Sequence record: NC_049824.1
Reading direction: 5' to 3' (one strand)
From: Escherichia phage vojen
Length of the DNA: 50,709 nt
The position numbers and the translations under genes were made by a program. Of the stretch, positions 37,969 to 50,709 are shown in pieces. Each line of letters begins with the position of its first letter. The stretch's first letter is position 1. The notes under the pieces were generated by a model. That model worked only from the letters and a program-made list of their open reading frames with translations, was not told the origin of the DNA and did no database searches.

Positions 37969-38901
37969 TTAGAGAAGTGATTCAGGCTTGTAAACCTTCC
38001 TCTCTATCCCTTGCCTGTAATTATCATGAATCGGCATCATAATTTCAAGTCCTCTTTCCTCAGCAGCAATGATCGCGTCACGGTCTGTACTCTTACAGAC
38101 AACTCGCATTCTTCTGTTGCCTTTATACCTGTAAGCTACAATCTCAATGTTAGTTGCATCAAAGCAGGCCCAAACCTCTTGACCAGTTGCAAGGTGAATA
38201 TGTTGCGCATCAATCCAGTCAACGCAAAGATAGATCGTCTTATCTGTGCTTCCTGTTCTCACAATCGACCCGCGCGTGTAGTCCTTTGCGAGAAAAGACT
38301 TATTACCTTCTTCATCAATGAAAAGCACATTGCACATTTCATCATCAATTTCATCTGAATGTACCAGGTAACATGGGAGCGCGTGAATGTATCGACCATC
38401 TTTAACGCCGCATTCATAATAACCATCTTCAGGCGGATATATCCCTTCATATGTACTTAACGGGGTGCGATCAAATTTTAGTGTTTTCGACATAACTCGC
38501 TCGCAGCATTCATGGCTTGCCTGCTTCCCAAACGAATAACCAGAATCACGAGATACTCGCTTATTTGCCTTGATCCTATAGTCCTGCGGAACTTTTCCAA
38601 GAAAGCGGCCCAAAATATTGATCACTTCGCTGTAAGGTTCTCCGGTTAGCTTCATGATCCAACCAATTCCAGTATCGTTGCCGCACACGTTGCAGATAGC
38701 GCCGCCATCGCCTTTTTTATCGCCAAGTTTATCCGTCCATCTGAAGCGATCCTTTCCGCCGCAGTGGGGGCAAGATTGATGCTTGCCGTTAAAAACTTCA
38801 TTTGGAAGACCGCAAATACTTTGTAGCGCCTCACGCCACAATCCTTGCATATATGGGAGAACATCTTCTTTTTGATAAACCATAAAGTTTTCGTTATTCA
38901 T
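37969..38901 (-). CDS. DNA primase (zinc-binding domain type)
   Basis: [12 protein letters not shown]...CNVCG zinc-finger arrangement; start moved to ATG with GAGGTG RBS. Confidence 0.55.
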
Positions 38902-38956
38902 ATACACCTCAAACAAAAAAGCCTGACAGATGATAACATCATGCCAGGCATTGTTT

Positions 38957-39430
38957 TTAGCAATTAGTGCTTTCAGGTTTATACAGGAATCCGCCAGGTT
39001 CATAATCTGACATTCTTACCACTCGCAACATTTCACGCTTATCACATCTCTTTGTGAGCGGTTTTCCATTGGAATCAAATCGCAGATCTGGACGGCAGAA
39101 TGAAGCGCGATAGCCTTGACAGCCATACTTTTTGTAATCGTTATGCACCTTTTGAGCGCCAGCGGCTGAAATCATACCGCGAACGCGCCACTGATTTACA
39201 GTTTGCTGGCTAACGTTAAGACGCTTTGCCATTGCTGACACGCTGCCGTAATACTCAATAAGAATGTCAAGCCGTGCTTTTAGTCCGGCGCGCACTTCAT
39301 CTTTTAAAACATAGTATCCTGTAGGGCGCTTGCGCTTTTTCTTATCTTTACCCCGTCGAGTTCCGTTATTGCCATTGATTGTGCGTTTGTCAATCTTACC
39401 AGTTGATACTGCGATTCGCTGTTCTTTCAT
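38957..39430 (-). CDS. putative DNA-binding regulator (basic N-terminus, HTH-like segment)
   Basis: KDKKKRKRP basic stretch; LNVSQQTVNQWR HTH-like segment; GGAGA RBS; start abuts a conserved element in the divergent region. Confidence 0.5.
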   Translation of the reverse strand: MKEQRIAVSTGKIDKRTINGNNGTRRGKDKKKRKRPTGYYVLKDEVRAGLKARLDILIEYYGSVSAMAKRLNVSQQTVNQWRVRGMISAAGAQKVHNDYKKYGCQGYRASFCRPDLRFDSNGKPLTKRCDKREMLRVVRMSDYEPGGFLYKPESTNC

Positions 39431-39444
39431 TATTCATTCTCCAA

Positions 39445-39464
39445 TAGCATTTTTTGTTAAACGA
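39445..39464 (+). promoter_or_regulatory. Conserved element, variant ATAGCATTTTTTGTTAAACG
   Basis: In the divergent region between the HTH gene and helicase; TATTAT at a ~16-bp gap. Confidence 0.5.
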
Positions 39465-39519
39465 TGATTTAATGATTGTGTATTATACACGCCAAATGGC
39501 ATTACTCAAAGGTTTTAGA

Positions 39520-41565
39520 ATGATTCCAAACATTGAAAAGCAAATATCAGCACTTGGTGAAGCGGTAATTAAATCCATTCAGGAGCGATTCACTGTTGGC
39601 GAGATTGTGCCTTACCCTTACCAGTGCGTTGCATACGCTGAGATCGCAAAGCGTATGAAAAATTATGAGCATCCATTCTTTGTTAAAGCGTCCGTATCGG
39701 CTGGCAAAACATTGATGTTTGCAATGGTTGCTCACCAGTGCCGGAAAATGGGCTTGAAAATGATGGTACTTGCTCGCCAGGCTGAGATTGTGGATCAGGA
39801 TTCTGAAGAGATAACAAATCTTGGTGTGCCGAACTCCATCTATTGTGCAGGACTGAAGACAAAAAGCGCATACTTTCCGATCGTTGTTGGTTCTGAGGGA
39901 ACTGTAGTTAATGGACTGTTTAAAGCGCTTGGCGACTATGTTCCGCACGTTATCGGGATCGACGAGTGTCACCAGGTGGATTGGGAAGACCTTGCCGACG
40001 CAATAGAGAAAGACGAGTCATTTTTACAAATGACAACTAAGAAAGGCGAAAAAGTACCAAATCCAGATTATGACATAACAAAGGGAAGCAGGAACAGAAA
40101 TACAGAGTTCCTGATTGGTGAGGATGGCTTGCCAATGGAGGGAACAGGCCGCACACAATACACTGTCATTATCATGGAAATGATGCGCCGCTGCCGGAAA
40201 ACATATGGTCATGAACTGCGCATATTTGGCATGACTGGATCGGAGTTTCGCGGCGTAGTCCCGATCCTGGTGGAAGACAAAAAACAGAAAGGATTCTGGC
40301 GTGAACAGGTTACTAATATTGACACCAACTACCTGATCAAATTCGGTTCTGTTGTGCCAACAAATTTTGGCGACGTTGGCGATCTAGGGTATGACCTTTC
40401 AGAGTTTGAGGCATCCAGTGAGGATGGCGTTGCAGACTTTGACGCTAAAACGCTTCGCAGGATGGAACAAAAAATTCATGAAGAAGCGACCATGACAAAG
40501 CGCATCATGGCGAAAGTTCACGAGATCTGTAAAAACCGCAACGGCGTACTTGTGACATGTGCAGGAGAAAGGCATTGCAAAGAGGCAGCGGCAGCGTTGC
40601 CACCTGGAACGACTTACAGGATAATTACTGGTAAGACTGGCGACAATCAGCGCAAGGAGTGGTTAAGGGAAGCATACGAAGGGAAAGTAAAATACATCTT
40701 CCAGGTTCAGGCGCTAACAACTGGCGTTAACGTGCCGTTTTGGGATACGTCGGTTATATTGCGTAAGATTGGATCTCTTACGTTGCTGATTCAGCTTTTA
40801 GGACGCGGAATGCGACTTCTTAAGAAATGGCATAAGGAGCAAGGCTTCAAGAAAGATGATCACCTGGTTATGGATTTTTCAGGAACGATGGACGAGTTAG
40901 GTGAGCTTTATTTTGATCCGATACTTGAACAGGCGCAGCATCAGAAGCGATTCAGGAACGGTAAAGATCCGAAGCCTTGTCCTGTTTGTGGAACTCTTAA
41001 CAGCTATTATGCTCGTCGTTGTATGCACGTAGACGAAAACGGCAACAGATGCGAGTGGTTCTTTAAATTCAGGACATGTGATGATCAGATTGACCCACGC
41101 ACTAAAAAGATTATTCAGCGCGGCTGTGGAACTAAAAATGATATTGCGGCCAGGGTATGCAGACATTGCGACATGTCATTGATTGACCCTAACGAGAAGT
41201 TAAGCGGAAAGCACTACACAAAAAACGACTGGTTTCAGGTGCAATCTTTCTCGGTTGACATGACGAAAAACCAGAAAGGGATAATATTTAATTATGAGCT
41301 TTCCGATGGCATAGACACTTTCAGAGCGCGTGAAATATTTTTCCCTGAATCAGAAAGCCAAATTTGTCGCGCAAAATGGAGAAATGTTGCTCTTAAGCAC
41401 ATACCGGATCGCCGTATTGCTGGCATGGTGGCGAGCTATCGTAATGCACGTAAAATCATGCAATATGTGAATCACATCATGCCGCCATCGCGTGTTACTC
41501 ACAGAAAGACTAGCAAGAGTGAAGATAATTTGTACAAGAAGGACTTTAATTATGGCAATGACTGA
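39520..41565 (+). CDS. SF2 DNA helicase with C-terminal zinc-ribbon motifs
   Basis: Walker A SAGKT; DExH-like GIDECHQ; C-terminal CPVCG...RRC and CGTKN...CRHC; start moved from in-motif TTG to ATG. Confidence 0.65.
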   Translation: MIPNIEKQISALGEAVIKSIQERFTVGEIVPYPYQCVAYAEIAKRMKNYEHPFFVKASVSAGKTLMFAMVAHQCRKMGLKMMVLARQAEIVDQDSEEITNLGVPNSIYCAGLKTKSAYFPIVVGSEGTVVNGLFKALGDYVPHVIGIDECHQVDWEDLADAIEKDESFLQMTTKKGEKVPNPDYDITKGSRNRNTEFLIGEDGLPMEGTGRTQYTVIIMEMMRRCRKTYGHELRIFGMTGSEFRGVVPILVEDKKQKGFWREQVTNIDTNYLIKFGSVVPTNFGDVGDLGYDLSEFEASSEDGVADFDAKTLRRMEQKIHEEATMTKRIMAKVHEICKNRNGVLVTCAGERHCKEAAAALPPGTTYRIITGKTGDNQRKEWLREAYEGKVKYIFQVQALTTGVNVPFWDTSVILRKIGSLTLLIQLLGRGMRLLKKWHKEQGFKKDDHLVMDFSGTMDELGELYFDPILEQAQHQKRFRNGKDPKPCPVCGTLNSYYARRCMHVDENGNRCEWFFKFRTCDDQIDPRTKKIIQRGCGTKNDIAARVCRHCDMSLIDPNEKLSGKHYTKNDWFQVQSFSVDMTKNQKGIIFNYELSDGIDTFRAREIFFPESESQICRAKWRNVALKHIPDRRIAGMVASYRNARKIMQYVNHIMPPSRVTHRKTSKSEDNLYKKDFNYGND

Positions 41566-41983
41566 TAAAGGCGATTATCTGGAGTTTTACGAAAGAGATC
41601 CGACGGATACGCTAAAAGAGGAATCTCACCAGATCGGGGCGTTTCAATGGTTAACTTATGCTCATCCTGAATTTCTTGCCTGGCATACTAAAAATGAGGG
41701 CGACAAGGGGATCGCCACCGCAATGATGGATCAGCAAGCAGGACTCGTTAAGGGCGTAAGTGATTTTATCATCCTGATTGGATTGAAAGGCCGCTACCCT
41801 TTCGCGGCTATTGAGATGAAACGCGTCAATAAGTCTGGCAAGGGTAAGTCTTCACCAGTCAGCAAGGATCAAAAAGCCTTCTTGCGTCGTGTGCGTGAGC
41901 TTGGCGGATTCGCTGCCGTAACATACGGATATAAGCAATTCATGATCGCGGTAGAATACATGATAAATAGCACTTTTTGTTAA
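41552..41983 (+). CDS. VRR-NUC-like nuclease
   Basis: C-terminal segment with SDFIIL...AIEMKR consistent with a PD-(D/E)xK/VRR-NUC core; last five codons encoded by the next motif copy. Confidence 0.5.
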   Translation: MAMTDKGDYLEFYERDPTDTLKEESHQIGAFQWLTYAHPEFLAWHTKNEGDKGIATAMMDQQAGLVKGVSDFIILIGLKGRYPFAAIEMKRVNKSGKGKSSPVSKDQKAFLRRVRELGGFAAVTYGYKQFMIAVEYMINSTFC

Positions 41984-42044: not shown

Positions 42045-42746
42045 ATGAGTAAAGAAACTGAAGTGACATTTGAACAAATAGAAAGAGAAACATTCATTGG
42101 CAATGCTCTTGCTACTGGAGGCCATTACCAGGCTGTTAAACCAAATCAATATTATAAAGTCACTGGCAACCGCTATAACGGCAGCAATACGCCGGACGTT
42201 GTGCGCGATTTGTGGTCTACGCCGTATGAGCTTGTCGCATGGATGGAAAGCGAATACGGTGATTATGACATCGACGCGGCGGCAAGCAAAGAAAATGCTG
42301 TATGTGAAAAATTCTACAGCAAGGAAACAAATTGTTTAAAGCGTTGGTGGGGTAGTAATAAGCATATATGGCTGAATCCACCGTACAGCAATATTACGCC
42401 ATTTGTTAAGAAGGCGATTGAGCAAATGGAGCACGGAAACCAGATCGACATGCTTTTACCTTGCGACACGTCAACAGGATGGTTTTATGAGGCGCAACAG
42501 CACGCAGCGGAAATAATCTGGATCACTGGAGAAGTTTACCAGGAGGACGGAACAGAATATTCCCGCACCGGACGCCTGGCGTTCACTTCAGCGCTTACAG
42601 GTAAACCAGTGCAGGGTAACAATAAAGGAAGCGTTATTTTCATCATGCGCGAACTTAAAGAAGGTGAGCAGCAGAAAACGCGATACGTTAAAATCAGCGA
42701 CATTTGCCCTTCGGTGGCAGACCGTCGCGCACGGAAACGGAGCTAA
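42045..42746 (+). CDS. dam: DNA N6-adenine methyltransferase (phage Dam-like)
   Basis: NPPY catalytic motif (LNPPYS) in a 233-aa protein. Confidence 0.7.
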   Translation: MSKETEVTFEQIERETFIGNALATGGHYQAVKPNQYYKVTGNRYNGSNTPDVVRDLWSTPYELVAWMESEYGDYDIDAAASKENAVCEKFYSKETNCLKRWWGSNKHIWLNPPYSNITPFVKKAIEQMEHGNQIDMLLPCDTSTGWFYEAQQHAAEIIWITGEVYQEDGTEYSRTGRLAFTSALTGKPVQGNNKGSVIFIMRELKEGEQQKTRYVKISDICPSVADRRARKRS

Positions 42747-43474: not shown

Positions 43475-43572
43475 GGATTATTATCATGTGGCGTTTGTTA
43501 CTTTTGCCCTTACCTGTTATGATGGCGATCTCTATTGTATATGTTGTCATAATGAGATAAGGAGAATTTTTG

Positions 43573-44688
43573 ATGAAGCAAATCAAAATCACAGATGAAC
43601 AATTTATCAATGAGCGCAAGCAGGGAAAGACATATAAGCAGATCGCTAATGAGTATGGTATGAACGTTCGCAGCATTGAGCGACGCGCGGCACGATTAGC
43701 AAAGCAAGGTAAAGTTACAACCATCGGATCACCTGGTTTTGGTGTTACTGGAGAATCAAAGCTAATTGATAAAGATGGCAATGTGGTTATGACATGGATT
43801 AAGACAAGTAAGGACCGCGAACAGTTAGAAGCATTAATGCAGGCCGCTATGGATGCATTTAGCGAAGAAGTTCCTCGACTTGATCCACAGCCAGAATCAC
43901 AAAAGGATTATAGCGAGACGTTATCACTGTATCCGATCTTTGACATGCACTTGGGAGCAATGGCGCATAAGCATGAATGCGGCGAGAATTGGGATACAGC
44001 AACAGCAGAGCGCGTAATGAATAATTTCATTGATTATTCCATCCAGTGCGCGCCGGATAGTGAAAAGGCTGTTTTACTGATTGGTGGTGACATGCTTCAC
44101 AGCGACGGACTGGAGGCGGTGACACCTGCAAGCGGTCACGTATTGGATCAAGATAGTCGATATGCAAAACTTGTTTATGTTGCCATCCGGTCAGTGCGTC
44201 GAGCAATTACAAAGCTGTTATCAAAACACAAAAACGTCGAGATTCAGATCATTGAAGGCAACCACGACCAAAGCGGCATGATCTGGTTGCGCGCAGCAAT
44301 GGCGGCAGCATATGAGAATGAGCCGCGAGTGCATGTTGATGTTTCTCCGCGAGTAGTTCATCACACACAGTATGGCAAAACATTCCTGGCATACCATCAC
44401 GGGCACACTATCCGCAAGCCTGAAACATTGCTCATGATGTGCGCGGCAGACTGGCGCGAAGACTTCGGCAATTCAAAAATGATGTATGCTCACGTAGGGC
44501 ATTGGCATCATCAAACAGTAACCGAAACAAGCCTGGGAATTGTTGAAGTGCATAGCACTATGGCGGCAAAAGATGCATATGCGGCGCGCGGTGGATGGCG
44601 TTCTCGCCGCCGTGCGGCTGTTATTGTTTATGATAAAGAATACGGAGAAGTGGGGCGATTTATGCATTATCCAGAAATGGCTGGTTGA
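43573..44688 (+). CDS. metallophosphoesterase with N-terminal HTH-like segment
   Basis: Calcineurin-like motifs DMH, GGDMLH, GNHD and HWHH; N-terminal TYKQIANEYGMNVRSIERRAARL; AAGGAG RBS. Confidence 0.55.
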   Translation: MKQIKITDEQFINERKQGKTYKQIANEYGMNVRSIERRAARLAKQGKVTTIGSPGFGVTGESKLIDKDGNVVMTWIKTSKDREQLEALMQAAMDAFSEEVPRLDPQPESQKDYSETLSLYPIFDMHLGAMAHKHECGENWDTATAERVMNNFIDYSIQCAPDSEKAVLLIGGDMLHSDGLEAVTPASGHVLDQDSRYAKLVYVAIRSVRRAITKLLSKHKNVEIQIIEGNHDQSGMIWLRAAMAAAYENEPRVHVDVSPRVVHHTQYGKTFLAYHHGHTIRKPETLLMMCAADWREDFGNSKMMYAHVGHWHHQTVTETSLGIVEVHSTMAAKDAYAARGGWRSRRRAAVIVYDKEYGEVGRFMHYPEMAG

Positions 44689-45939: not shown

Positions 45940-45955
45940 CGCCTCCTTTGTTATT
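45930..45955. terminator. Bidirectional terminator at the convergence point
   Basis: GGAGGC-TTAAC-GCCTCC hairpin with flanking A- and T-runs. Confidence 0.6.
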
Positions 45956-46071
45956 CAATTCTCTTTACAGTAACAAACAAAACGCCGTCATCATCACACA
46001 AATTATGTTCTGATATGTTAAACGCTCGCATGTCAGAATGAATGAGCGTTAACATTGCGTGCATGAAGTCT

Positions 46072-46464
46072 TCATGTGAGATTGAACTTACGGCGCAGAA
46101 CTTCAATATTTTGTCTATTAGCATTTGACGTAAACAATTCTTCATCGCTCATTTCCCCGATCCGTAAAACATCCCTTACCCATTCGTTTTGCATACCTTC
46201 CAGGCTGTAAAGTTCAAACGAGAAAGGGCGATTTGCGGATCCTTTCTTACACCAGAACTTTCCACCAACTCCATCAAGATAACCAGCGGTCATCATTCTT
46301 GCGCAAAACTCTTTTGAAACGGCAGTCGCAAACATTCTCGGCGTAAATCCTGCGGCCCTTGCGAGCCGCTCACATTCTCTATGCTGAAATATAAATTTTG
46401 CGATATGTTGACGTGTAAACCATTCGAATGACTCGCACCAGCGATACAGATCCAGAAGAAACAT
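46072..46464 (-). CDS. hypothetical protein (130 aa)
   Basis: ORF adjacent downstream of the ATPase gene on the minus strand. Confidence 0.5.
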   Translation of the reverse strand: MFLLDLYRWCESFEWFTRQHIAKFIFQHRECERLARAAGFTPRMFATAVSKEFCARMMTAGYLDGVGGKFWCKKGSANRPFSFELYSLEGMQNEWVRDVLRIGEMSDEELFTSNANRQNIEVLRRKFNLT

Positions 46465-46466
46465 AA

Positions 46467-48050
46467 TTACCCCAGCAATGTTGGATTTACGAAAACAACG
46501 CCATTAATCACACAAATATAATTTCTTTCCTCAAGCATCGGAAGCAGTTGCGTTTCCATGCGCTTCATTACGCCAGCCTGACCAACAAAAGGCTTAACTT
46601 TTCGTGCAGCCTCATATATGGCGCGCACATTCAAGATCCCCTTGTTAGCCTTACCGTGTCGAGTGATAATCTCGATTAGTTTGCCCATTTCAGCATCATC
46701 ACCAGCATAGCCAGAAGCGTTGGCGGCGCTAATGTATGTTTTGCTCAACTCGCTAAACATCAGCAGTGCTTCTTGAACGGTTTCAACTTCAATCTCTTTC
46801 GACTTCTGAGGGTATCCACCAGGATTAAACCAGTTGCGGATAGTGTGCAAAACCGAAGCAATCCTGATCACCTGCTTATCCATTTTGCCAAGAGCACCGC
46901 GCAGCATTGTATGCGAATACTTTCCGCCATCAGCAAGGTGCGGCTCCATCTCCTGACGAGCCATGTTAAGAACTCGCATTGCTGATTTGCTGATCTTAAG
47001 CTGGATGTTTGATTCACTCATGATGTTATGGATCAGCTTAAAATATTGACTTTTCAGTTCTCCATCAACAGGCTCATAAGTAGAATCACCGTTATCATCA
47101 ACAAACTTTCGACGACCTAAAAATGATTCCTCACGCACAAGCAAATAACGCTCACTCACACCGATACCGCGCGATCCTGCATCCATGATGGCATTGATTG
47201 TTTCATCCTGGGCAATCACCGCCATACAGCCAAGAGCTTTAAAACTCATATTGTTGTCAGCGTTTGCACGAGCTATAGAAACATGACCATGATCCCATGC
47301 TTTCAGCACAAGTTCGCTGTTGGTTTTACGTTCGCCATTAGCATATGTCAGACCTAAAAGGCTGTTAATACTCGTTGCCTCGTCTGAAATCACAGCAAAG
47401 TTACCCTGGCGATTGTTGATTCTTGCAAGTCCTTCCGGCGTGGTGTCGGACACAGGGAAAACAATGTCACACATCTTTTCCAGTTTTTCTTCCAGATCTT
47501 CTTTCTCTTGGTATAGCGATTCCATATCAGCACCAGATCGCTCGCTCTTCATCTCTTTTGCAAGACCTGCCAACTTTGCCTGAATCTTTTTCCGCTCCTT
47601 CTTTCGCTGATCATTAATTCTTTCCACTTCAGCAACCATAGGAGCAAGAGCCAGGCTGTTAACGGCAGATTTACCAGTTGAAGGAGGCTGGCTTGTGACA
47701 ACATAAAGAGCGGTTGGCTGATCCGTTCCGTGATACTCAACCGTGAATCGTCCAAGCATTGCAGCAGACACACAGCCGATAAAATGCATATATGCCGATG
47801 ATTCAGGGAATTGAACAGATCGAGCAATGTTGCGCGCCAACTTGCCAACAACATCAACATCATTGCCAAGAGAAATTACAGGGTAGCGATCGTTTCCGTT
47901 ATTAACATCATTAACCTCACCCCAAAAGCTGGACGATTGACGGTATCCGTTAGCCTGAATGGACACGCGCACCGGAGACAATCCTTGTGCATCAGCTAAT
48001 TCGATAATTTGTTTTGGTGTTAGTTTATTGGTTTCAAACGAAAAATTCAT
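46467..48050 (-). CDS. P-loop ATPase, putative replicative helicase / primase-associated ATPase
   Basis: Walker A QPPSTGKSA; start moved to ATG with AAGGAG RBS. Confidence 0.45.
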   Translation of the reverse strand: MNFSFETNKLTPKQIIELADAQGLSPVRVSIQANGYRQSSSFWGEVNDVNNGNDRYPVISLGNDVDVVGKLARNIARSVQFPESSAYMHFIGCVSAAMLGRFTVEYHGTDQPTALYVVTSQPPSTGKSAVNSLALAPMVAEVERINDQRKKERKKIQAKLAGLAKEMKSERSGADMESLYQEKEDLEEKLEKMCDIVFPVSDTTPEGLARINNRQGNFAVISDEATSINSLLGLTYANGERKTNSELVLKAWDHGHVSIARANADNNMSFKALGCMAVIAQDETINAIMDAGSRGIGVSERYLLVREESFLGRRKFVDDNGDSTYEPVDGELKSQYFKLIHNIMSESNIQLKISKSAMRVLNMARQEMEPHLADGGKYSHTMLRGALGKMDKQVIRIASVLHTIRNWFNPGGYPQKSKEIEVETVQEALLMFSELSKTYISAANASGYAGDDAEMGKLIEIITRHGKANKGILNVRAIYEAARKVKPFVGQAGVMKRMETQLLPMLEERNYICVINGVVFVNPTLLG

Positions 48051-48101
48051 TGATGATAACTCCTTTTTGATGCGGCAATAATACCGCACCAATGCTACCC
48101 G

Positions 48102-48121
48102 CATTTAACAAAAAATGCTAT
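48102..48121 (-). promoter_or_regulatory. Conserved element, variant (minus-strand reading ATAGCATTTTTTGTTAAATG)
   Basis: Variant motif followed by TGCGG...CCGCA dyad around TATTAT at an 18-bp gap; overlaps the TAG stop of gene 48118..48339. Confidence 0.5.
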
Positions 48122-48339
48122 TTGATCCGCTCTATGCTAACTAAGATTTTTTCTGGTTCCTTTGCACTATGGCAATGCGCGGTTACAGAATCAACAAAAT
48201 CAAAGTAAAGTGATTTGTGATATGAAAATCCAATCAGCCACCCAACCATCGTTTTCTTTATTGGCCTGACTATATCGCCAGGCCTGAAGGTTTTTGTTGC
48301 TGATTGAGTCACCTTATAGCGATATTCAGTCTTGATCAC
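48118..48339 (-). CDS. hypothetical protein (73 aa)
   Basis: ORF with ATGA overlap to the upstream gene. Confidence 0.45.
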   Translation of the reverse strand: MIKTEYRYKVTQSATKTFRPGDIVRPIKKTMVGWLIGFSYHKSLYFDFVDSVTAHCHSAKEPEKILVSIERIK

Positions 48340-48722
48340 TTATACATGGCCTCAAACAAATGACAGCCACCAGCGGAAAACCCTACTTCTTCGCGGTATA
48401 GCGTCCAGCGATCGCCAGCTTCATCAAACACATAACCAGCAACATCGCCAAGAGCGCGGCCTTGCTCAATCTGGTAGCGCTTTCCTTCTTTGAAATGCTT
48501 TTTGCAAGGGATCTTGTGATCTACAAAGGTGCATTTAATTGTTTTTGTCTTGATATGACGATAGTCAGACTCAACCGCGTTTTGCCACTTGCTACCCTTT
48601 GTAATGCTCTTTACCTGGAATTGTTCCAACTCGATCACATCATCGCTACCAGCAATTTTTTCGTATACGGTTTTATAGCGCCCGTTCATCAAAACGTTGG
48701 TTTTATTGCAGATAACTTTCAT
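48336..48722 (-). CDS. hypothetical protein (128 aa)
   Basis: ORF with GGAGA RBS downstream of a complete motif/dyad/CATAAT module. Confidence 0.55.
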   Translation of the reverse strand: MKVICNKTNVLMNGRYKTVYEKIAGSDDVIELEQFQVKSITKGSKWQNAVESDYRHIKTKTIKCTFVDHKIPCKKHFKEGKRYQIEQGRALGDVAGYVFDEAGDRWTLYREEVGFSAGGCHLFEAMYK

Positions 48723-48777
48723 CGTTTATTTCTCCTTTCGTTTCGGTGAAGTGATTATGCCAGGCTTTTACACCTGG

Positions 48778-48797
48778 CTTTTAACAAAAAGTGCTAT
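48778..48797 (-). promoter_or_regulatory. Conserved 20-bp element (minus-strand reading ATAGCACTTTTTGTTAAAAG)
   Basis: Exact motif followed by GCCAGG...CCTGGC dyad and CATAAT at an 18-bp gap, then RBS and ATG of 48336..48722. Confidence 0.55.
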
Positions 48798-49498
48798 TTT
48801 GCGTTAGCTTCAAAGACTGCGCGGGCAAAACCGCGCGGGGTGAGGGAGCGGATCATCTTTGTGCGAGATGATTTTCCGCCAGTTTTGGCCCAACCAGGAT
48901 TATCCTTCTCAGTTGGTAATATCATGTTTTTAGGTGGAACGATAAATCCGTTACCAGTCCAAAGGCATGTTTTCTTAAAGTACCGATCCCGCGCAGGAAT
49001 AATATCAGGGAAGTCGGGATGTTTATCATCTTCCGGTAAATATCCGGCGTAATCGCACGGATGGAACGTGTAATCAGGCTTACGCCATAACGTTGACAGC
49101 TTGCCTACAGGATTCTCTATCATGTAAGGAACACCGAAATAATCAGCGATATGCGCGGCTATTTTGCAAGTGTCGGCGGCCTCATTTTGGAAGTTAGGAT
49201 TTTCCATGCGCTTTTTAGCCCAATGGCGAGATCCGCTGTTTGCTAATTGTGTGCAAGGTGGGAAGGCCATAATGAAATCAGGCTTACCCCAATTTTCAAG
49301 TTTTGCGGTATATTTGAATAGATCATCAATCCACACATTAACGTAAAAAATATTATCATGGATTATGCGCACTGAGTGGTAATCTCCGTGATCAGCATCA
49401 TCGTAATTAAAGCAAATGCATTTATATCCATCATCAGCCCAATCTTTAACAGCCTTACCAGATCCATCAAACAAAGAGAAAATTAAACCTTTATACAT
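48794..49498 (-). CDS. DNA cytosine-C5 methyltransferase-like protein
   Basis: Motif I-like LFDGSGKA, PC-containing motif IV-like FPPCTQ, ENV-like MIENPVG; 234 aa is short for this family. Confidence 0.5.
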   Translation of the reverse strand: MYKGLIFSLFDGSGKAVKDWADDGYKCICFNYDDADHGDYHSVRIIHDNIFYVNVWIDDLFKYTAKLENWGKPDFIMAFPPCTQLANSGSRHWAKKRMENPNFQNEAADTCKIAAHIADYFGVPYMIENPVGKLSTLWRKPDYTFHPCDYAGYLPEDDKHPDFPDIIPARDRYFKKTCLWTGNGFIVPPKNMILPTEKDNPGWAKTGGKSSRTKMIRSLTPRGFARAVFEANAK

Positions 49499-49507
49499 TT
49501 CATCACC

Positions 49508-49732
49508 TCAAAACGGAAAGCATCGCGGGCAGTTAGGATCAAAATTGCAGCCGCAATCATTGACAATCATAGTTGGATCTGCAAATGCAGCGCCGCATTC
49601 ATGATCCATATCCATTTCACCCAGCGCATCATCAAGCGTCCTGATCTTATATGCAACTTCAAGCGCTGTCTCTTTATTTAATCCGGCATCTTCAGCCATT
49701 TGCAGGCGCTCAAAAAATCCGTCCTGACTCAT
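49508..49732 (-). CDS. small Cys-rich protein (74 aa)
   Basis: Start moved to ATG with AAGGAG RBS; C-terminal CGC...CPRC cluster. Confidence 0.45.
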   Translation of the reverse strand: MSQDGFFERLQMAEDAGLNKETALEVAYKIRTLDDALGEMDMDHECGAAFADPTMIVNDCGCNFDPNCPRCFPF

Positions 49733-49861
49733 TTCATAAACTCCTTGATAGCAAACAGAATAATAGCAAGACCAGCAGTGACAACCCAAAGACCAATAAG
49801 GCCAATCATCACTCCCAATAAAATATCAAGAAATTTCATCATTATTATCACCTTTATTTAA

Positions 49862-49886
49862 AGGGAGGCGAAAACCTCCCGTTTAT
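49862..49886. terminator. Intrinsic terminator-like hairpin
   Basis: GGGAGG-CGAAAA-CCTCCC hairpin with T-rich flanks, downstream of gene 49890..50117. Confidence 0.55.
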
Positions 49887-49889
49887 TAA

Positions 49890-50117
49890 TTAGACAGCCT
49901 TCCAGCTTTCAATGAACATGCTGTTCTCTTCAAGAAGTTTAATCAATTCTTCGCGTGTATATTTGCGGATTTTACTACCAGGATGCGAGCCAACAACAAA
50001 CACACCTTTACCGCTTGTGATTGTTAACTGGTTGATTCCGCAAGATTTATCCATTTTTACGGCGACGCGGTGATGAGCGTCAATAGTTGCCATAATGTTT
50101 AAAACTTTTGCTTTCAT
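49890..50117 (-). CDS. hypothetical protein (75 aa)
   Basis: ORF on minus strand. Confidence 0.5.
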   Translation of the reverse strand: MKAKVLNIMATIDAHHRVAVKMDKSCGINQLTITSGKGVFVVGSHPGSKIRKYTREELIKLLEENSMFIESWKAV

Positions 50118-50225
50118 TTAAATATCCTCAATTGAAATATGAATGACGTGGCGCTCTTTTTCCGTCGCCGCCGTAATGGTCATTTGCAACAGCCACCATC
50201 CAAGCGTTTTTGAAAATAAATAGCC

Positions 50226-50438
50226 TCACTTCTTATTTTTCATTTTAAATTTATGACCTGGAACACCAGCACCAATATATCCATCGTTGTATTCCATTAA
50301 ATAAAGGTGAAGGCCATTATCTGAAATTAAATGAGGATCTTCTTTTAGATTTCCCATTAGTTGGTATTCTTTTCCGCGCGTAAATTTCCAAATTGATTTA
50401 TAAGTTTCTACACATTTAAGTTTTAATTGCCTTGCCAT
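50226..50438 (-). CDS. hypothetical protein (70 aa)
   Basis: ORF on minus strand. Confidence 0.5.
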   Translation of the reverse strand: MARQLKLKCVETYKSIWKFTRGKEYQLMGNLKEDPHLISDNGLHLYLMEYNDGYIGAGVPGHKFKMKNKK

Positions 50439-50635
50439 TAGATGATCTCCATGTATGTTTCAAAGCCATTTAACTTGAACAGGCCGTTTTCACATTTGCG
50501 CACGTTCCAAGTTAGCCCTGAGTGGTACGCCTCCATATCATCAAGATCAATGGTGATTTCAACGCCTTTCTTAAATAAGCCTTTTTCGTGAGATTTGTCG
50601 CGCTTAACCACTTTAACATCAACCTGATTTTCCAT
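50438..50635 (-). CDS. hypothetical protein (65 aa)
   Basis: First ORF downstream of the motif copy at the window end. Confidence 0.5.
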   Translation of the reverse strand: MENQVDVKVVKRDKSHEKGLFKKGVEITIDLDDMEAYHSGLTWNVRKCENGLFKLNGFETYMEII

Positions 50636-50690
50636 TTTTTAATCCTCGTTCGTTGTCGATGCGCATAATATACCAATCAGAGGCGCATCG

Positions 50691-50709
50691 GTTTTAACAA
50701 AAAGTGCTA
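50691..50709 (-). promoter_or_regulatory. Conserved element, truncated at window end
   Basis: Plus strand reads GTTTTAACAAAAAGTGCTA, preceded by GATGCGC...GCGCATC dyad enclosing an ATAAT-like hexamer. Confidence 0.5.

What the first reader, a model, noticed from the sequence alone, without database searches (positions are those of the whole stretch)
46467..48050. Large P-loop ATPase on the minus-strand arm, apart from the other replication genes
This 527-aa protein with a PPSTGKS Walker A is encoded ~6 kb from the primase and SF2 helicase and on the opposite arm, among unknown genes. It may be the replicative helicase or initiator, but an ATPase of another function such as a defence-related NTPase is not excluded from sequence alone.
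Basis: inference. Interest (0 to 1): 0.35.

Follow-up and report, generated by a model that had tools for sequence, protein, structure and literature searches.

The report
T1-type phage MCM-like putative replicative helicase
The 527-residue ATPase is the T1-like phages' conserved DUF3987 protein, an MCM-like motor already annotated as a DNA helicase and predicted to unwind phage DNA alongside the phage primase, so the finding is real but ordinary.

Summary
Window 46467..48050 (-) encodes a 527-aa protein with an invariant QPPSTGKS Walker A. The window is a T1-like coliphage (Drexlerviridae, Hanrivervirus-like, about 97% identical to phages egaa and JakobBernoulli). The protein is a clear member of Pfam DUF3987 (149.5 bits, cutoff 27) and of phrog_2373 'DNA helicase'. 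It is up to 99.8% identical to proteins already labelled 'DNA helicase' in public records, and T1 ST9 is its homolog in the same genomic position. A confident AlphaFold model (pLDDT 87.5) matches almost only MCM2-7 and archaeal MCM among solved structures. Walker A Lys127, Walker B Glu224, Gln281, Arg301 (an MCM 'SRFD'-like arginine finger) and Arg261 stay invariant down to 23% identity. Distant relatives place the gene beside the primase/SF2-helicase/recombination module. Other relatives fuse the module to a DnaG zinc finger, the DnaB N-terminal domain or AEP primase domains. No defence-system profile matches. The best reading is the phage's replicative helicase working with the separately encoded primase and host polymerase. 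This was predicted in 2016, and helicase activity was shown for a distant family member in 2025. No experiment exists for the T1-type protein. Novelty: already known. Interest: low.

The parts
46467..48050 (-). CDS of the 527-aa DUF3987-family, MCM-like AAA+ ATPase (putative replicative helicase); the stop codon is 46467-46469
48060..48065 (-). Shine-Dalgarno AAGGAG, 9 nt upstream of the ATG at 48050; supports the 527-aa start over the 545-aa ORF start at 48104
   Evidence: homolog lengths
47751..48050 (-). N-terminal all-helical region (residues 1-100) with no OB fold; in fused relatives a primase or DnaB-N domain precedes the DUF3987 module
   Evidence: secondary structure of the model; fusions
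47667..47690 (-). Walker A / P-loop QPPSTGKS (residues 121-128); K127 is invariant down to 23% identity
47475..47666 (-). Long charged helical hairpin (residues ~129-192) inserted between the P-loop helix and strand beta2; a family feature of unknown role
   Evidence: model (H125-168, H173-192); near-colinear Pfam match; composition
47379..47399 (-). Walker B strand FAVISDE (residues 218-224); E224 is invariant and D223 is conserved only in the T1-type subfamily
   Evidence: strand E217-222
47235..47294 (-). Candidate pre-sensor-1 beta-hairpin (residues ~253-272) carrying invariant R261; low model confidence
   Evidence: (pLDDT 49-70 here); inference
47202..47234 (-). Strand beta4 plus the sensor-1 position, AVIAQDE (residues 273-283); Q281 is invariant
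47148..47162 (-). GVSER motif (residues 297-301) just before strand beta5; R301 is invariant and is the candidate arginine finger, resembling the MCM 'SRFD' motif (recalled)
   Evidence: motif equivalence is inference
46875..46904 (-). Lid-domain motif LRGALGKMDK (residues 383-392), the candidate sensor-2 region; K389 is invariant and R384 is invariant only within the T1-type subfamily
46470..46700 (-). C-terminal domain (residues ~451-527) with winged-helix topology H-b-H-H-b-b, pLDDT above 90
   Evidence: phrog_7327 matches residues 442-526 on their own; C-terminal wHTH reported for the family in PMC4889955
37969..39003 (-). Inferred partner: DnaG/P4-alpha-type primase (zinc ribbon of primase-helicase); covers only the N-terminal half of the phrog_510 profile; start codon not refined
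   Evidence: partnership is inference
39454..41565 (+). Context and rival candidate: SF2 helicase (ResIII + Helicase_C), followed by an overlapping VRR-NUC nuclease ORF (41492..41983); start codons not refined
46072..46464 (-). 130-aa ORF of unknown function (phrog_2794) starting 2 nt after the helicase stop codon; T1 has ST10 in the same position; possible accessory factor

Best explanation
The gene encodes the T1-like phages' DUF3987-family ATPase, an AAA+ motor of the MCM-like (superfamily 6) kind. Its parts are an N-terminal helical region, a P-loop core carrying a long helical hairpin, a lid domain and a C-terminal winged helix. The most likely function is the phage's own replicative helicase. 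It would assemble as a ring and use ATP hydrolysis (Walker A K127, Walker B E224, trans-acting R301) to unwind phage DNA. It would work with the separately encoded DnaG/P4-type primase as a primosome, and host DNA polymerase III would do the synthesis, because the phage encodes no polymerase. Shown here: family membership, conserved catalytic residues, MCM-like predicted fold, core-gene status, and primase linkage in relatives. Inferred: ring assembly, helicase activity, polarity, primase contact and the replicative role.
For: Family: Pfam DUF3987 at 149.5 bits against a cutoff of 27, covering residues 82-431. There is also a full-length match to phrog_2373 'DNA helicase', E=8.7e-246. Fold: the AlphaFold2 model has pLDDT 87.5 and pTM 0.85. 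In Foldseek against PDB, 49 of the top 50 hits are MCM2-7 subunits or archaeal MCM 4r7y, with best E=1.5e-4 and probability about 1.0. The BFVD hits are DUF3987 proteins, many fused to PrimPol or TOPRIM primases. Catalytic residues: Q121, P122, K127, E224, R261, Q281, R301 and K389 are invariant in a 24-sequence alignment at 23-39% identity. Core-gene status: 919 phage records carry a homolog and 898 have it full-length. T1 ST9 sits in the same position. Linkage to primase: in Pseudoalteromonas phage TW1 the order is DUF3987, DnaG-type primase, SF2 helicase, exonuclease VIII, SSB, contiguous on one strand. In Salmonella phage Akira the gene is about 650 bp from the primase/SF2 helicase/exonuclease/recombinase/SSB module. 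The primase has nearly the same genus distribution within Drexlerviridae. Fusions found with this family's own profile: Zn_ribbon_DnaG + DUF3987 (P0149), DnaB N-terminal domain + DUF3987 (P0185), BT4734-like AEP + DUF3987 (P0238), and NrS-1 polymerase HBD + DUF3987 (P0264). Need for such a function: T1's full annotation lists no DNA polymerase, no DnaB-like helicase and no helicase loader. The window's primase covers only positions 5-316 of the 667-position phrog_510 profile, so it has no helicase domain of its own. Literature: DUF3987 is classed as SF6 and predicted replicative (PMC4889955). A PriCT-DUF3987 protein (AgaPH) is an ATP-dependent 5'-3' helicase that binds its primase-polymerase, and Walker A/B mutants are inactive (PMC11724360).
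Against: No biochemical or genetic data on any T1-type member were found. In the window itself the gene is 4.9-7.5 kb from the other replication genes, so the linkage argument rests on distant relatives. The two most telling fusions each come from a single short metagenomic contig. The phage has a second helicase (SF2, 39454..41565) that could be the fork helicase. The MCM match is remote: TM-score is about 0.35 normalised to the query, RMSD is 8-15 A, identity is 10-13%, and there is no Pfam MCM hit even at E<=5. The MCM N-terminal OB/zinc tier is absent. The link to N4 dns (gp43), the one phage DUF3987-like protein reported as essential for replication (PMC4889955), is below the Pfam threshold (24.2 vs 27 bits), and the T1-type profile does not see it. 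From memory only and not verified here: classical work reported that T1 DNA synthesis needs host 'elongation' dna genes. If these include dnaB, a phage-encoded fork helicase becomes less likely.
Confidence: 0.65

Rival explanations
1. It is mainly an origin-recognising initiator or helicase loader. This would be an AAA+ switch with a C-terminal winged helix, as in Orc1/Cdc6, or functionally like lambda O/P. It would open the phage origin and recruit host DnaB rather than travelling with the fork itself. A hybrid initiator-plus-helicase (E1, large T antigen or P4 alpha logic) is a softer version.
For: AAA+ plus lid plus C-terminal winged-helix architecture. One weak Foldseek hit to an archaeal Cdc6/Orc1 (2qby_A, rank 28). 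No separate initiator protein is annotated in T1. The gene lies in a block of early-looking small genes rather than with the primase.
Against: The Cdc6/Orc1 hit is poor (probability 0.51, TM 0.13), whereas 49 of the top 50 hits are MCM. A DnaB N-terminal domain fused to this motor (P0185) and primase fusions mimic helicase, not loader, architectures. A family member has demonstrated helicase activity. No iterons or other origin-like repeats lie next to the gene.
Confidence: 0.17
2. It is a recombination, repair or fork-restart motor (RuvB-like branch migration, or D-loop processing for recombination-dependent replication). The SF2 helicase or host DnaB would then serve as the fork helicase.
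For: Superfamily 6 also contains RuvB. The phage encodes an exonuclease VIII / Erf / SSB recombination system and a VRR-NUC nuclease. In TW1 and Akira the gene is clustered with recombination genes as well as with the primase.
Against: None of the 50 listed Foldseek hits is described as RuvB. The SF2 helicase, not this gene, is the one overlapping the VRR-NUC nuclease ORF, a pairing I would expect for branch processing (inference). The recurrent fusions are to primases and to the DnaB N-terminal domain, not to recombination domains.
Confidence: 0.13
3. It is a defence or counter-defence NTPase unrelated to replication.
For: It sits among small unnamed genes, including a homolog of a 128-aa ORF of SECphi27; a 128-aa SECphi27 protein of unknown function was reported as a Mokosh trigger. 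Many P-loop NTPases are defence proteins.
Against: The only PADLOC match is a 12.5-bit coiled-coil hit to JetC. The gene is a full-length, fixed-position core gene in about 900 lytic phage genomes. It has an MCM-like fold and primase associations.
Confidence: 0.03

Closest known systems
DUF3987 family (Pfam PF13148), including the characterised PriCT-DUF3987 helicase AgaPH (PMC11724360)
   Same: The window protein matches the family model far above threshold. [quoted passage not shown] It is associated with a primase. AgaPH is an oligomeric, ATP/dATP-dependent helicase that binds its primase-polymerase.
   Different: AgaPH has an N-terminal PriCT domain and partners an AEP primase-polymerase on an integrated element. 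The window protein has its own helical N-terminus and would partner a DnaG/P4-type primase encoded 7.5 kb away in a lytic phage. AgaPH's sequence was not compared directly here. Its 5'-3' polarity cannot be assumed for the T1 type.
MCM helicases (superfamily 6, AAA+) of archaea and eukaryotes
   Same: They are the best structural matches. The order of motifs is the same: Walker A, Walker B, a hairpin before sensor 1, a sensor-1 strand, an arginine in an S-(E)-R-F/Y motif before beta5, then a lid and a C-terminal winged helix (the MCM motif comparison is from memory).
   Different: There is no sequence-level match to Pfam MCM. There is no N-terminal OB-fold or zinc tier. A 60-residue helical hairpin follows the P-loop helix instead of the MCM helix-2 insert. 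Identity is only 10-13%. The one family member tested has a polarity opposite to the 3'-5' direction usually described for MCM (MCM polarity from memory).
Phage N4 gp43 (dns)
   Same: It is a phage protein with a DUF3987-like ATPase region and is reported as essential for replication (PMC4889955). It also shows a near full-length alignment to the DUF3987 profile.
   Different: It scores below the Pfam gathering threshold (24.2 vs 27 bits), and the T1-type profile does not detect it. One search finds a PriCT_1 domain at its C-terminus, and the 2016 paper reports an AEP primase domain C-terminal to the helicase. N4 encodes its own polymerase.
Primase-helicase proteins T7 gp4 and P4 alpha (functional analogues)
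   Same: The logic is the same: a zinc-ribbon/TOPRIM-type primase coupled to a ring helicase. The window's primase hits the 'zinc-binding domain of primase-helicase' model, and T1's primase is annotated as similar to P4-family alpha proteins. Fused DnaG-zinc-finger + DUF3987 proteins exist.
   Different: In the window the two activities would be on separate proteins encoded in different transcription blocks. The motor is AAA+ MCM-like, not RecA-type SF4 (T7 gp4) or SF3 (P4 alpha); those two class assignments are from memory.
Bacterial DnaB (SF4)
   Same: The predicted role at the fork is the same. A relative (P0185) carries the DnaB N-terminal domain in front of a DUF3987 motor.
   Different: The motor fold is different. 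There is no DnaB_C match, and the structural hits are AAA+ MCM, not RecA-type rings.

Membership tests
DUF3987 (Pfam PF13148) | Match to the family HMM above the gathering score | tested here: met
   149.5 bits against a cutoff of 27, E=1.9e-43, residues 82-431 on profile positions 3-350 of 364. All 19 aligned homologs also match.
DUF3987 (Pfam PF13148) | Conserved Walker A (GxxxxGKS/T-like) and Walker B acidic residue | tested here: met
   QPPSTGKS 121-128 with K127 invariant. FAVISDE 218-224 with E224 invariant, also in a set at 23-39% identity.
DUF3987 (Pfam PF13148) | [quoted passage not shown] | tested here: met
   At model level only. Residues 451-527 have H-b-H-H-b-b topology at pLDDT above 90. 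No separate fold search of this domain was run.
DUF3987 (Pfam PF13148) | Association with a primase, by fusion or adjacency | tested here: met
   The gene is not adjacent to the primase in the window (7.5 kb apart). It is adjacent in phage TW1 and near it in Akira. It is fused in P0149, P0238 and P0264. It co-occurs with the primase across Drexlerviridae.
DUF3987 (Pfam PF13148) | ATP-dependent DNA helicase activity | not testable with these tools
   Shown only for AgaPH (PMC11724360).
MCM-like SF6 AAA+ helicases | AAA+ motor fold closest to MCM | tested here: met
   In Foldseek against PDB, 49 of the top 50 hits are MCM2-7 or archaeal MCM, with best E=1.5e-4, probability about 1.0 and TM about 0.35 normalised to the query.
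MCM-like SF6 AAA+ helicases | Sequence match to Pfam MCM (PF00493) | tested here: not met
   No MCM hit for the protein or any of 19 homologs at E<=5. A PDB sequence and profile search found no MCM. The literature reports the link only by HHsearch for another member.
MCM-like SF6 AAA+ helicases | Sensor 1 and a trans arginine finger in the expected positions | tested here: inconclusive
   Invariant Q281 lies at the end of beta4 and invariant R301 just before beta5. Positions fit, but the trans contact needs a ring model or mutagenesis.
MCM-like SF6 AAA+ helicases | Pre-sensor-1 beta-hairpin and helix-2 insert | tested here: inconclusive
   A hairpin-like segment at 253-272 carries invariant R261, but its pLDDT is 49-70. 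No helix-2 beta insert is evident; instead a long helical hairpin (129-192) follows helix 1.
MCM-like SF6 AAA+ helicases | N-terminal OB-fold / zinc-binding tier | tested here: not met
   Residues 1-100 are modelled as helices and loops only.
MCM-like SF6 AAA+ helicases | Hexameric ring and 3'-5' translocation | not testable with these tools
   Only single chains can be modelled here. The tested family member AgaPH unwinds 5'-3'.
DnaB-type SF4 helicases | RecA-fold DnaB_C motor domain | tested here: not met
   No DnaB_C hit. No DnaB-type entry appears among the 50 listed PDB fold hits.
SF3 viral helicases (P4 alpha, D5, E1) | SF3 AAA+ motor domain | tested here: not met
   No SF3-family Pfam hit. 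No SF3 helicase appears among the 50 listed PDB fold hits.
Orc1/Cdc6-type AAA+ initiators | Initiator-clade AAA+ fold with C-terminal winged helix | tested here: inconclusive
   There is a single weak hit, 2qby_A, at rank 28 with probability 0.51 and TM 0.13. The domain order is similar, but MCM matches dominate.
Known anti-phage defence NTPases (PADLOC-DB) | Match to a defence-system protein model | tested here: not met
   The only hit is a 12.5-bit match of the coiled-coil hairpin to JetC, E=0.005.

The most novel reading that the evidence does not exclude
The T1-type DUF3987 protein could be a self-sufficient initiator-helicase built on an MCM-like motor. It would recognise the phage origin through its winged helix and melt the DNA. 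It would then translocate 5'-3' like DnaB, which is opposite to MCM. It would dock the separately encoded DnaG/P4-type primase through its N-terminal region or its long helical hairpin. This would let a polymerase-less lytic phage bypass host DnaA, DnaB and DnaC and capture Pol III directly.
Probability: 0.2. Interest if true: 0.5.

Novelty: already known. Interest (0 to 1): 0.15.

Why it matters
The replication machinery of T1-like phages, a classical group now widely used in phage therapy and defence-system research, has not been worked out biochemically as far as this search could find. The phages encode no polymerase and have two helicase candidates. Identifying the DUF3987 protein as the likely fork helicase gives a concrete target for experiments on how a phage couples an archaeal/eukaryotic-style motor to bacterial primase and polymerase. 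It also corrects the 'hypothetical protein' labels still present in many records. As a discovery it adds little, because the family assignment and the predicted role were published in 2016 and RefSeq already calls the gene 'DNA helicase'.

Tried and rejected
1. Sequence searches against PDB chains with the single protein and with a 19-sequence profile found nothing meaningful.
2. NCBIfam and PADLOC gave only noise.
3. A permissive Pfam scan of 19 family members showed no secondary MCM, AAA or wHTH family hits.
4. I tried to tie the protein directly to N4 dns (gp43). Pfam DUF3987 is sub-threshold in gp43 and the T1-type HMM does not detect it, so I use it only as a remote analogy.
5. A search for an origin next to the gene found promoter-like and terminator-like sites at chance level and only short two-copy repeats. 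I rejected this as evidence for or against an initiator role.
6. A second structure prediction of the motor plus lid alone (residues 100-410) gave pLDDT 50.7 and pTM 0.38. I judged it unusable and did not submit it to a fold search.
7. Literature searches for T1 amber-mutant genetics, host dnaB dependence, escape mutants in this gene and genome-wide essentiality screens of T1-like phages found nothing usable. The original T1 genome paper and the supplement of the 2016 analysis are not held.
8. A profile-profile comparison with a real MCM alignment was considered. I did not run it, because it would have cost another whole-database search for an answer that the fold search and the literature already give.
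Full report
**Observation.** The window has an ORF at 46467..48104 on the minus strand, 545 aa from its first ATG. That is the better start. It has an AAGGAG Shine-Dalgarno at 48060-48065 with a 9-nt spacer. Full-length homologs are 520-531 aa and begin at the equivalent methionine. Phage JakobBernoulli annotates a 1584-nt CDS there. PPSTGKS is residues 122-128. The gene lies 4.9 kb from the end of the SF2 helicase gene and 7.5 kb from the primase gene. It sits in a minus-strand block (45951..50709) that converges on the holin/endolysin/spanin cassette.

**What the window is.** A 2.5-kb stretch around the gene is about 97% identical to Escherichia phages egaa, vB_EcoS_G29-2, JakobBernoulli, haarsle and others. 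JakobBernoulli is classified as Drexlerviridae, Tempevirinae, Hanrivervirus. The window is therefore a T1-like lytic coliphage genome. In those records the gene is labelled 'putative helicase' or 'DNA helicase', or in some 'hypothetical protein'.

**Family.**
- The protein matches Pfam DUF3987 (PF13148) at 149.5 bits against a cutoff of 27, over residues 82-431.
- It matches phrog_2373 'DNA helicase' end to end, E=8.7e-246.
- NCBIfam gives nothing. PADLOC gives only a 12.5-bit match of a coiled-coil segment to JetC.
- A translated search finds the protein in 919 phage records, full-length in 898. They span Escherichia, Klebsiella, Salmonella, Shigella, Citrobacter and Enterobacter phages, and reach 35-38% identity in Pectobacterium phage Sabo, Salmonella phage Akira and Pseudoalteromonas phage TW1.
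- Phage T1 itself has the homolog ST9 (522 aa, RefSeq 'DNA helicase'). It is in the same place: convergent with the spanin gene and followed by one small ORF.
- An exhaustive profile search finds 5,782 clusters at 50% identity with E<=1e-3, and 379 with E<=1e-30.

**Anatomy.** In 19 homologs at 36-83% identity the following are invariant or nearly so:
- the Walker A QPPSTGKS (121-128);
- the Walker B strand FAVISDE (218-224);
- AVIAQDE (277-283);
- GVSER (297-301);
- LRGxxGKxDK (383-392).

In a far more divergent set (24 sequences at 23-39% identity, including fusion proteins) Q121, P122, K127, T204, E206, E224, R261, Q281, G297, R301, E307 and K389 remain invariant. R384 and D223 are conserved only in the T1-type subfamily.

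An AlphaFold2 model built from the 19-sequence alignment is confident, with mean pLDDT 87.5 and pTM 0.85. It shows, in order:
- an all-helical N-terminal region (1-100);
- strand beta1 (116-120) leading into the P-loop;
- a long helical hairpin (125-192), with equal numbers of basic and acidic residues over 129-192;
- Walker B strand 217-222;
- a poorly resolved hairpin-like segment at about 253-272 that carries R261;
- strand 273-280 ending at Q281;
- R301 immediately before strand 302-306;
- a helical lid (330-406);
- a C-terminal H-b-H-H-b-b winged-helix-like domain (451-527).

**Fold comparison.** Against solved structures, 49 of the 50 best Foldseek hits are MCM2-7 subunits or the archaeal MCM hexamer 4r7y. 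The best E-value is 1.5e-4 and probabilities are about 1.0. TM-scores are only about 0.35 (normalised to the query) and identity is 10-13%. The one exception is a weak Cdc6/Orc1 hit. Against predicted viral structures the hits are DUF3987 proteins, many labelled primase/polymerase, TOPRIM primase or NrS-1-like polymerase fusions.

This reproduces the published classification independently. Kazlauskas et al. 2016 placed DUF3987 among divergent SF6 (MCM-like) helicases. They noted a C-terminal winged helix and frequent primase association, and predicted a replicative role (PMC4889955). In 2025 a PriCT-DUF3987 protein, AgaPH, was shown to be an oligomeric ATP-dependent 5'-3' helicase that binds its primase-polymerase. 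Walker A and B mutations abolished its helicase activity (PMC11724360). The S-E-R-Y/F motif before beta5 resembles the MCM 'SRFD' arginine-finger motif. That comparison is from memory, not a computed alignment.

**Context and linkage.** Pfam and PHROG scans resolve the window's replication genes as follows:

| Window coordinates | Strand | Assignment |
|---|---|---|
| 37969..39003 | - | DnaG/P4-alpha-type primase |
| 38957..39430 | - | Cro-like regulator |
| 39454..41565 | + | SF2 helicase |
| 41492..41983 | + | VRR-NUC nuclease (overlaps the SF2 helicase ORF) |
| 42045..42746 | + | Dam methyltransferase |
| 43570..44688 | + | Repair exonuclease |

The primase covers only positions 5-316 of the 667-position phrog_510 profile, so it has no motor domain of its own. 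T1's complete annotation has no DNA polymerase, DnaB-like helicase or loader.

- In TW1 the order is DUF3987, DnaG-type primase (CHC2 zinc finger), SF2 helicase, exonuclease VIII, SSB, on one strand without gaps.
- In Akira the gene lies about 650 bp from the primase/SF2 helicase/exonuclease/recombinase/SSB module.
- Sabo has the window's split layout.
- The primase shows almost the same genus counts as the DUF3987 gene within Drexlerviridae, although it extends further into Vibrio and Salmonella phages.

The most direct evidence is fusion. Among relatives found with this family's own profile:
- P0149 joins a DnaG zinc finger to a full-length T1-type module (E=2e-139).
- P0185 joins the DnaB N-terminal domain to a DUF3987 motor.
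- P0238 carries an AEP (BT4734-like) domain.
- P0264 carries an NrS-1 polymerase helix-bundle domain.

One caveat applies: P0149 and P0185 each come from a single short metagenomic contig.

**Mechanism.** The best-supported reading is a ring-forming AAA+ helicase that is the phage's replicative helicase. ATP would bind at K127 and be hydrolysed with E224. R301 would act across the subunit interface. R261 on the pre-sensor-1 hairpin would be the likely pore contact with DNA. The primase would be recruited as a separate subunit and host Pol III would synthesise DNA. Membership, conserved catalytic residues, fold and primase linkage are shown here. Ring formation, unwinding, polarity, the primase contact and the replicative role are inferred. 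I put this at about 0.65.

The rivals are:
- an initiator or loader role, or a combined initiator-helicase (0.17);
- a recombination or restart motor, with the SF2 helicase or host DnaB at the fork (0.13);
- a defence-related NTPase (0.03).

Points against the main reading:
- There is no experiment on any T1-type member.
- The MCM similarity is remote, and the MCM N-terminal tier is absent.
- The phage has a second helicase.
- I recall, but could not verify, that classical studies found T1 DNA synthesis dependent on host elongation dna genes.

**Comparison and novelty.** The protein is a member of DUF3987; every testable defining feature is met. It works like an MCM-type motor, but I do not file it as an MCM. 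It has no sequence-level match to Pfam MCM and lacks the OB/zinc N-terminal tier. It also has a helical hairpin where MCM has other inserts. It is not SF3, SF4 or a known defence NTPase. The protein is up to 99.8% identical to proteins already named helicase in public records, and the family's predicted role has been in the literature since 2016. The finding is therefore real, correctly interpreted in its main guess, and already known. Interest is low (0.15). The open part is experimental: nobody appears to have shown what this protein does in a T1-like phage.

**Dead ends.**
- PDB sequence searches.
- The N4 link.
- The origin search.
- A truncated-core structure prediction that failed at pLDDT 50.7.
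- Several literature searches for T1 genetics, host dependence and essentiality.

Noticed in passing
window 48336-48722 (-): This 128-aa ORF of unknown function (phrog_2684) lies two genes upstream of the helicase. It is 76% identical to a 128-aa ORF in the same position in phage SECphi27 (L006 2325-2711). A 'protein of unknown function (128aa)' of SECphi27 was reported as the trigger of the Mokosh type I defence system (bioRxiv 10.1101/2022.08.27.505566). Whether it is the same ORF was not established.
   Followed up: partly
window 46072-46464 (-): This 130-aa ORF (phrog_2794, unknown function, no Pfam hit) starts 2 nt after the helicase stop codon. T1 has a small ORF (ST10) in the same position, starting 4 nt after ST9's stop. 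It may be an accessory factor of the helicase. No homolog was detected in Sabo or TW1 at E<=1e-3.
   Followed up: partly
window 37969-39003 (-): The primase matches only positions 5-316 of the 667-position phrog_510 'DNA primase' profile. It therefore corresponds to the primase half of longer proteins in that family. T1's primase is annotated as similar to P4-family alpha proteins.
   Followed up: partly
window 39454-41983 (+): The SF2 helicase (ResIII + Helicase_C) ORF overlaps a VRR-NUC nuclease ORF. This pairing suggests branch or junction processing rather than fork unwinding. Start codons of both ORFs were not refined; in JakobBernoulli the two CDSs overlap by 14 nt.
   Followed up: partly
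window 43570-44688 (+): This 372-aa ORF has a full-length match to phrog_704 'DNA repair exonuclease' (E=1.7e-151) but no Pfam hit at E<=1e-3. T1 ST16 carries the same product name in the equivalent position.
   Followed up: no
window 48794-49498 (-): The Dcm-like cytosine methyltransferase (phrog_757, E=4.2e-85) has no Pfam hit at E<=1e-3. It lies in the same block as the helicase. In phage Sabo its homolog (41% identity) lies just downstream of the DUF3987 gene instead.
   Followed up: no
public records: About 20 records named 'Campylobacter phage' with host Campylobacter jejuni (for example MG065688, A110b, 44 kb) carry T1-like helicase and primase genes. The helicase is about 72% identical to the window's and clusters with E. 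coli phages. The host labels look doubtful.
   Followed up: no
public records and proteins P0090, P0111, P0114, P0118: In several relatives the gene is annotated as truncated or split products (Shigella phage 2019SD1, Salmonella virus STSR3, Vibrio phage Vc1, Citrobacter phage HCF1, Salmonella phage 36, phage Jk06). These probably reflect frameshifts or assembly errors rather than real loss.
   Followed up: no
L005 46085-46624 (T1 ST8); L002 10583-13693 (Sabo): Homing endonucleases sit at the replication genes. T1 has an HNH endonuclease gene directly upstream of ST9. In Sabo the window SF2 helicase matches two separate stretches on either side of an annotated LAGLIDADG endonuclease gene, so the SF2 helicase appears to be interrupted.
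   Followed up: no
residues 442-526 of the protein (window 46473-46727): The C-terminal winged-helix-like domain matches a separate PHROG of unknown function (phrog_7327, E=4.3e-37). It also matches alone (46% identity) in Klebsiella phage KL, where no feature is annotated. The domain may therefore be a mobile module.
   Followed up: no
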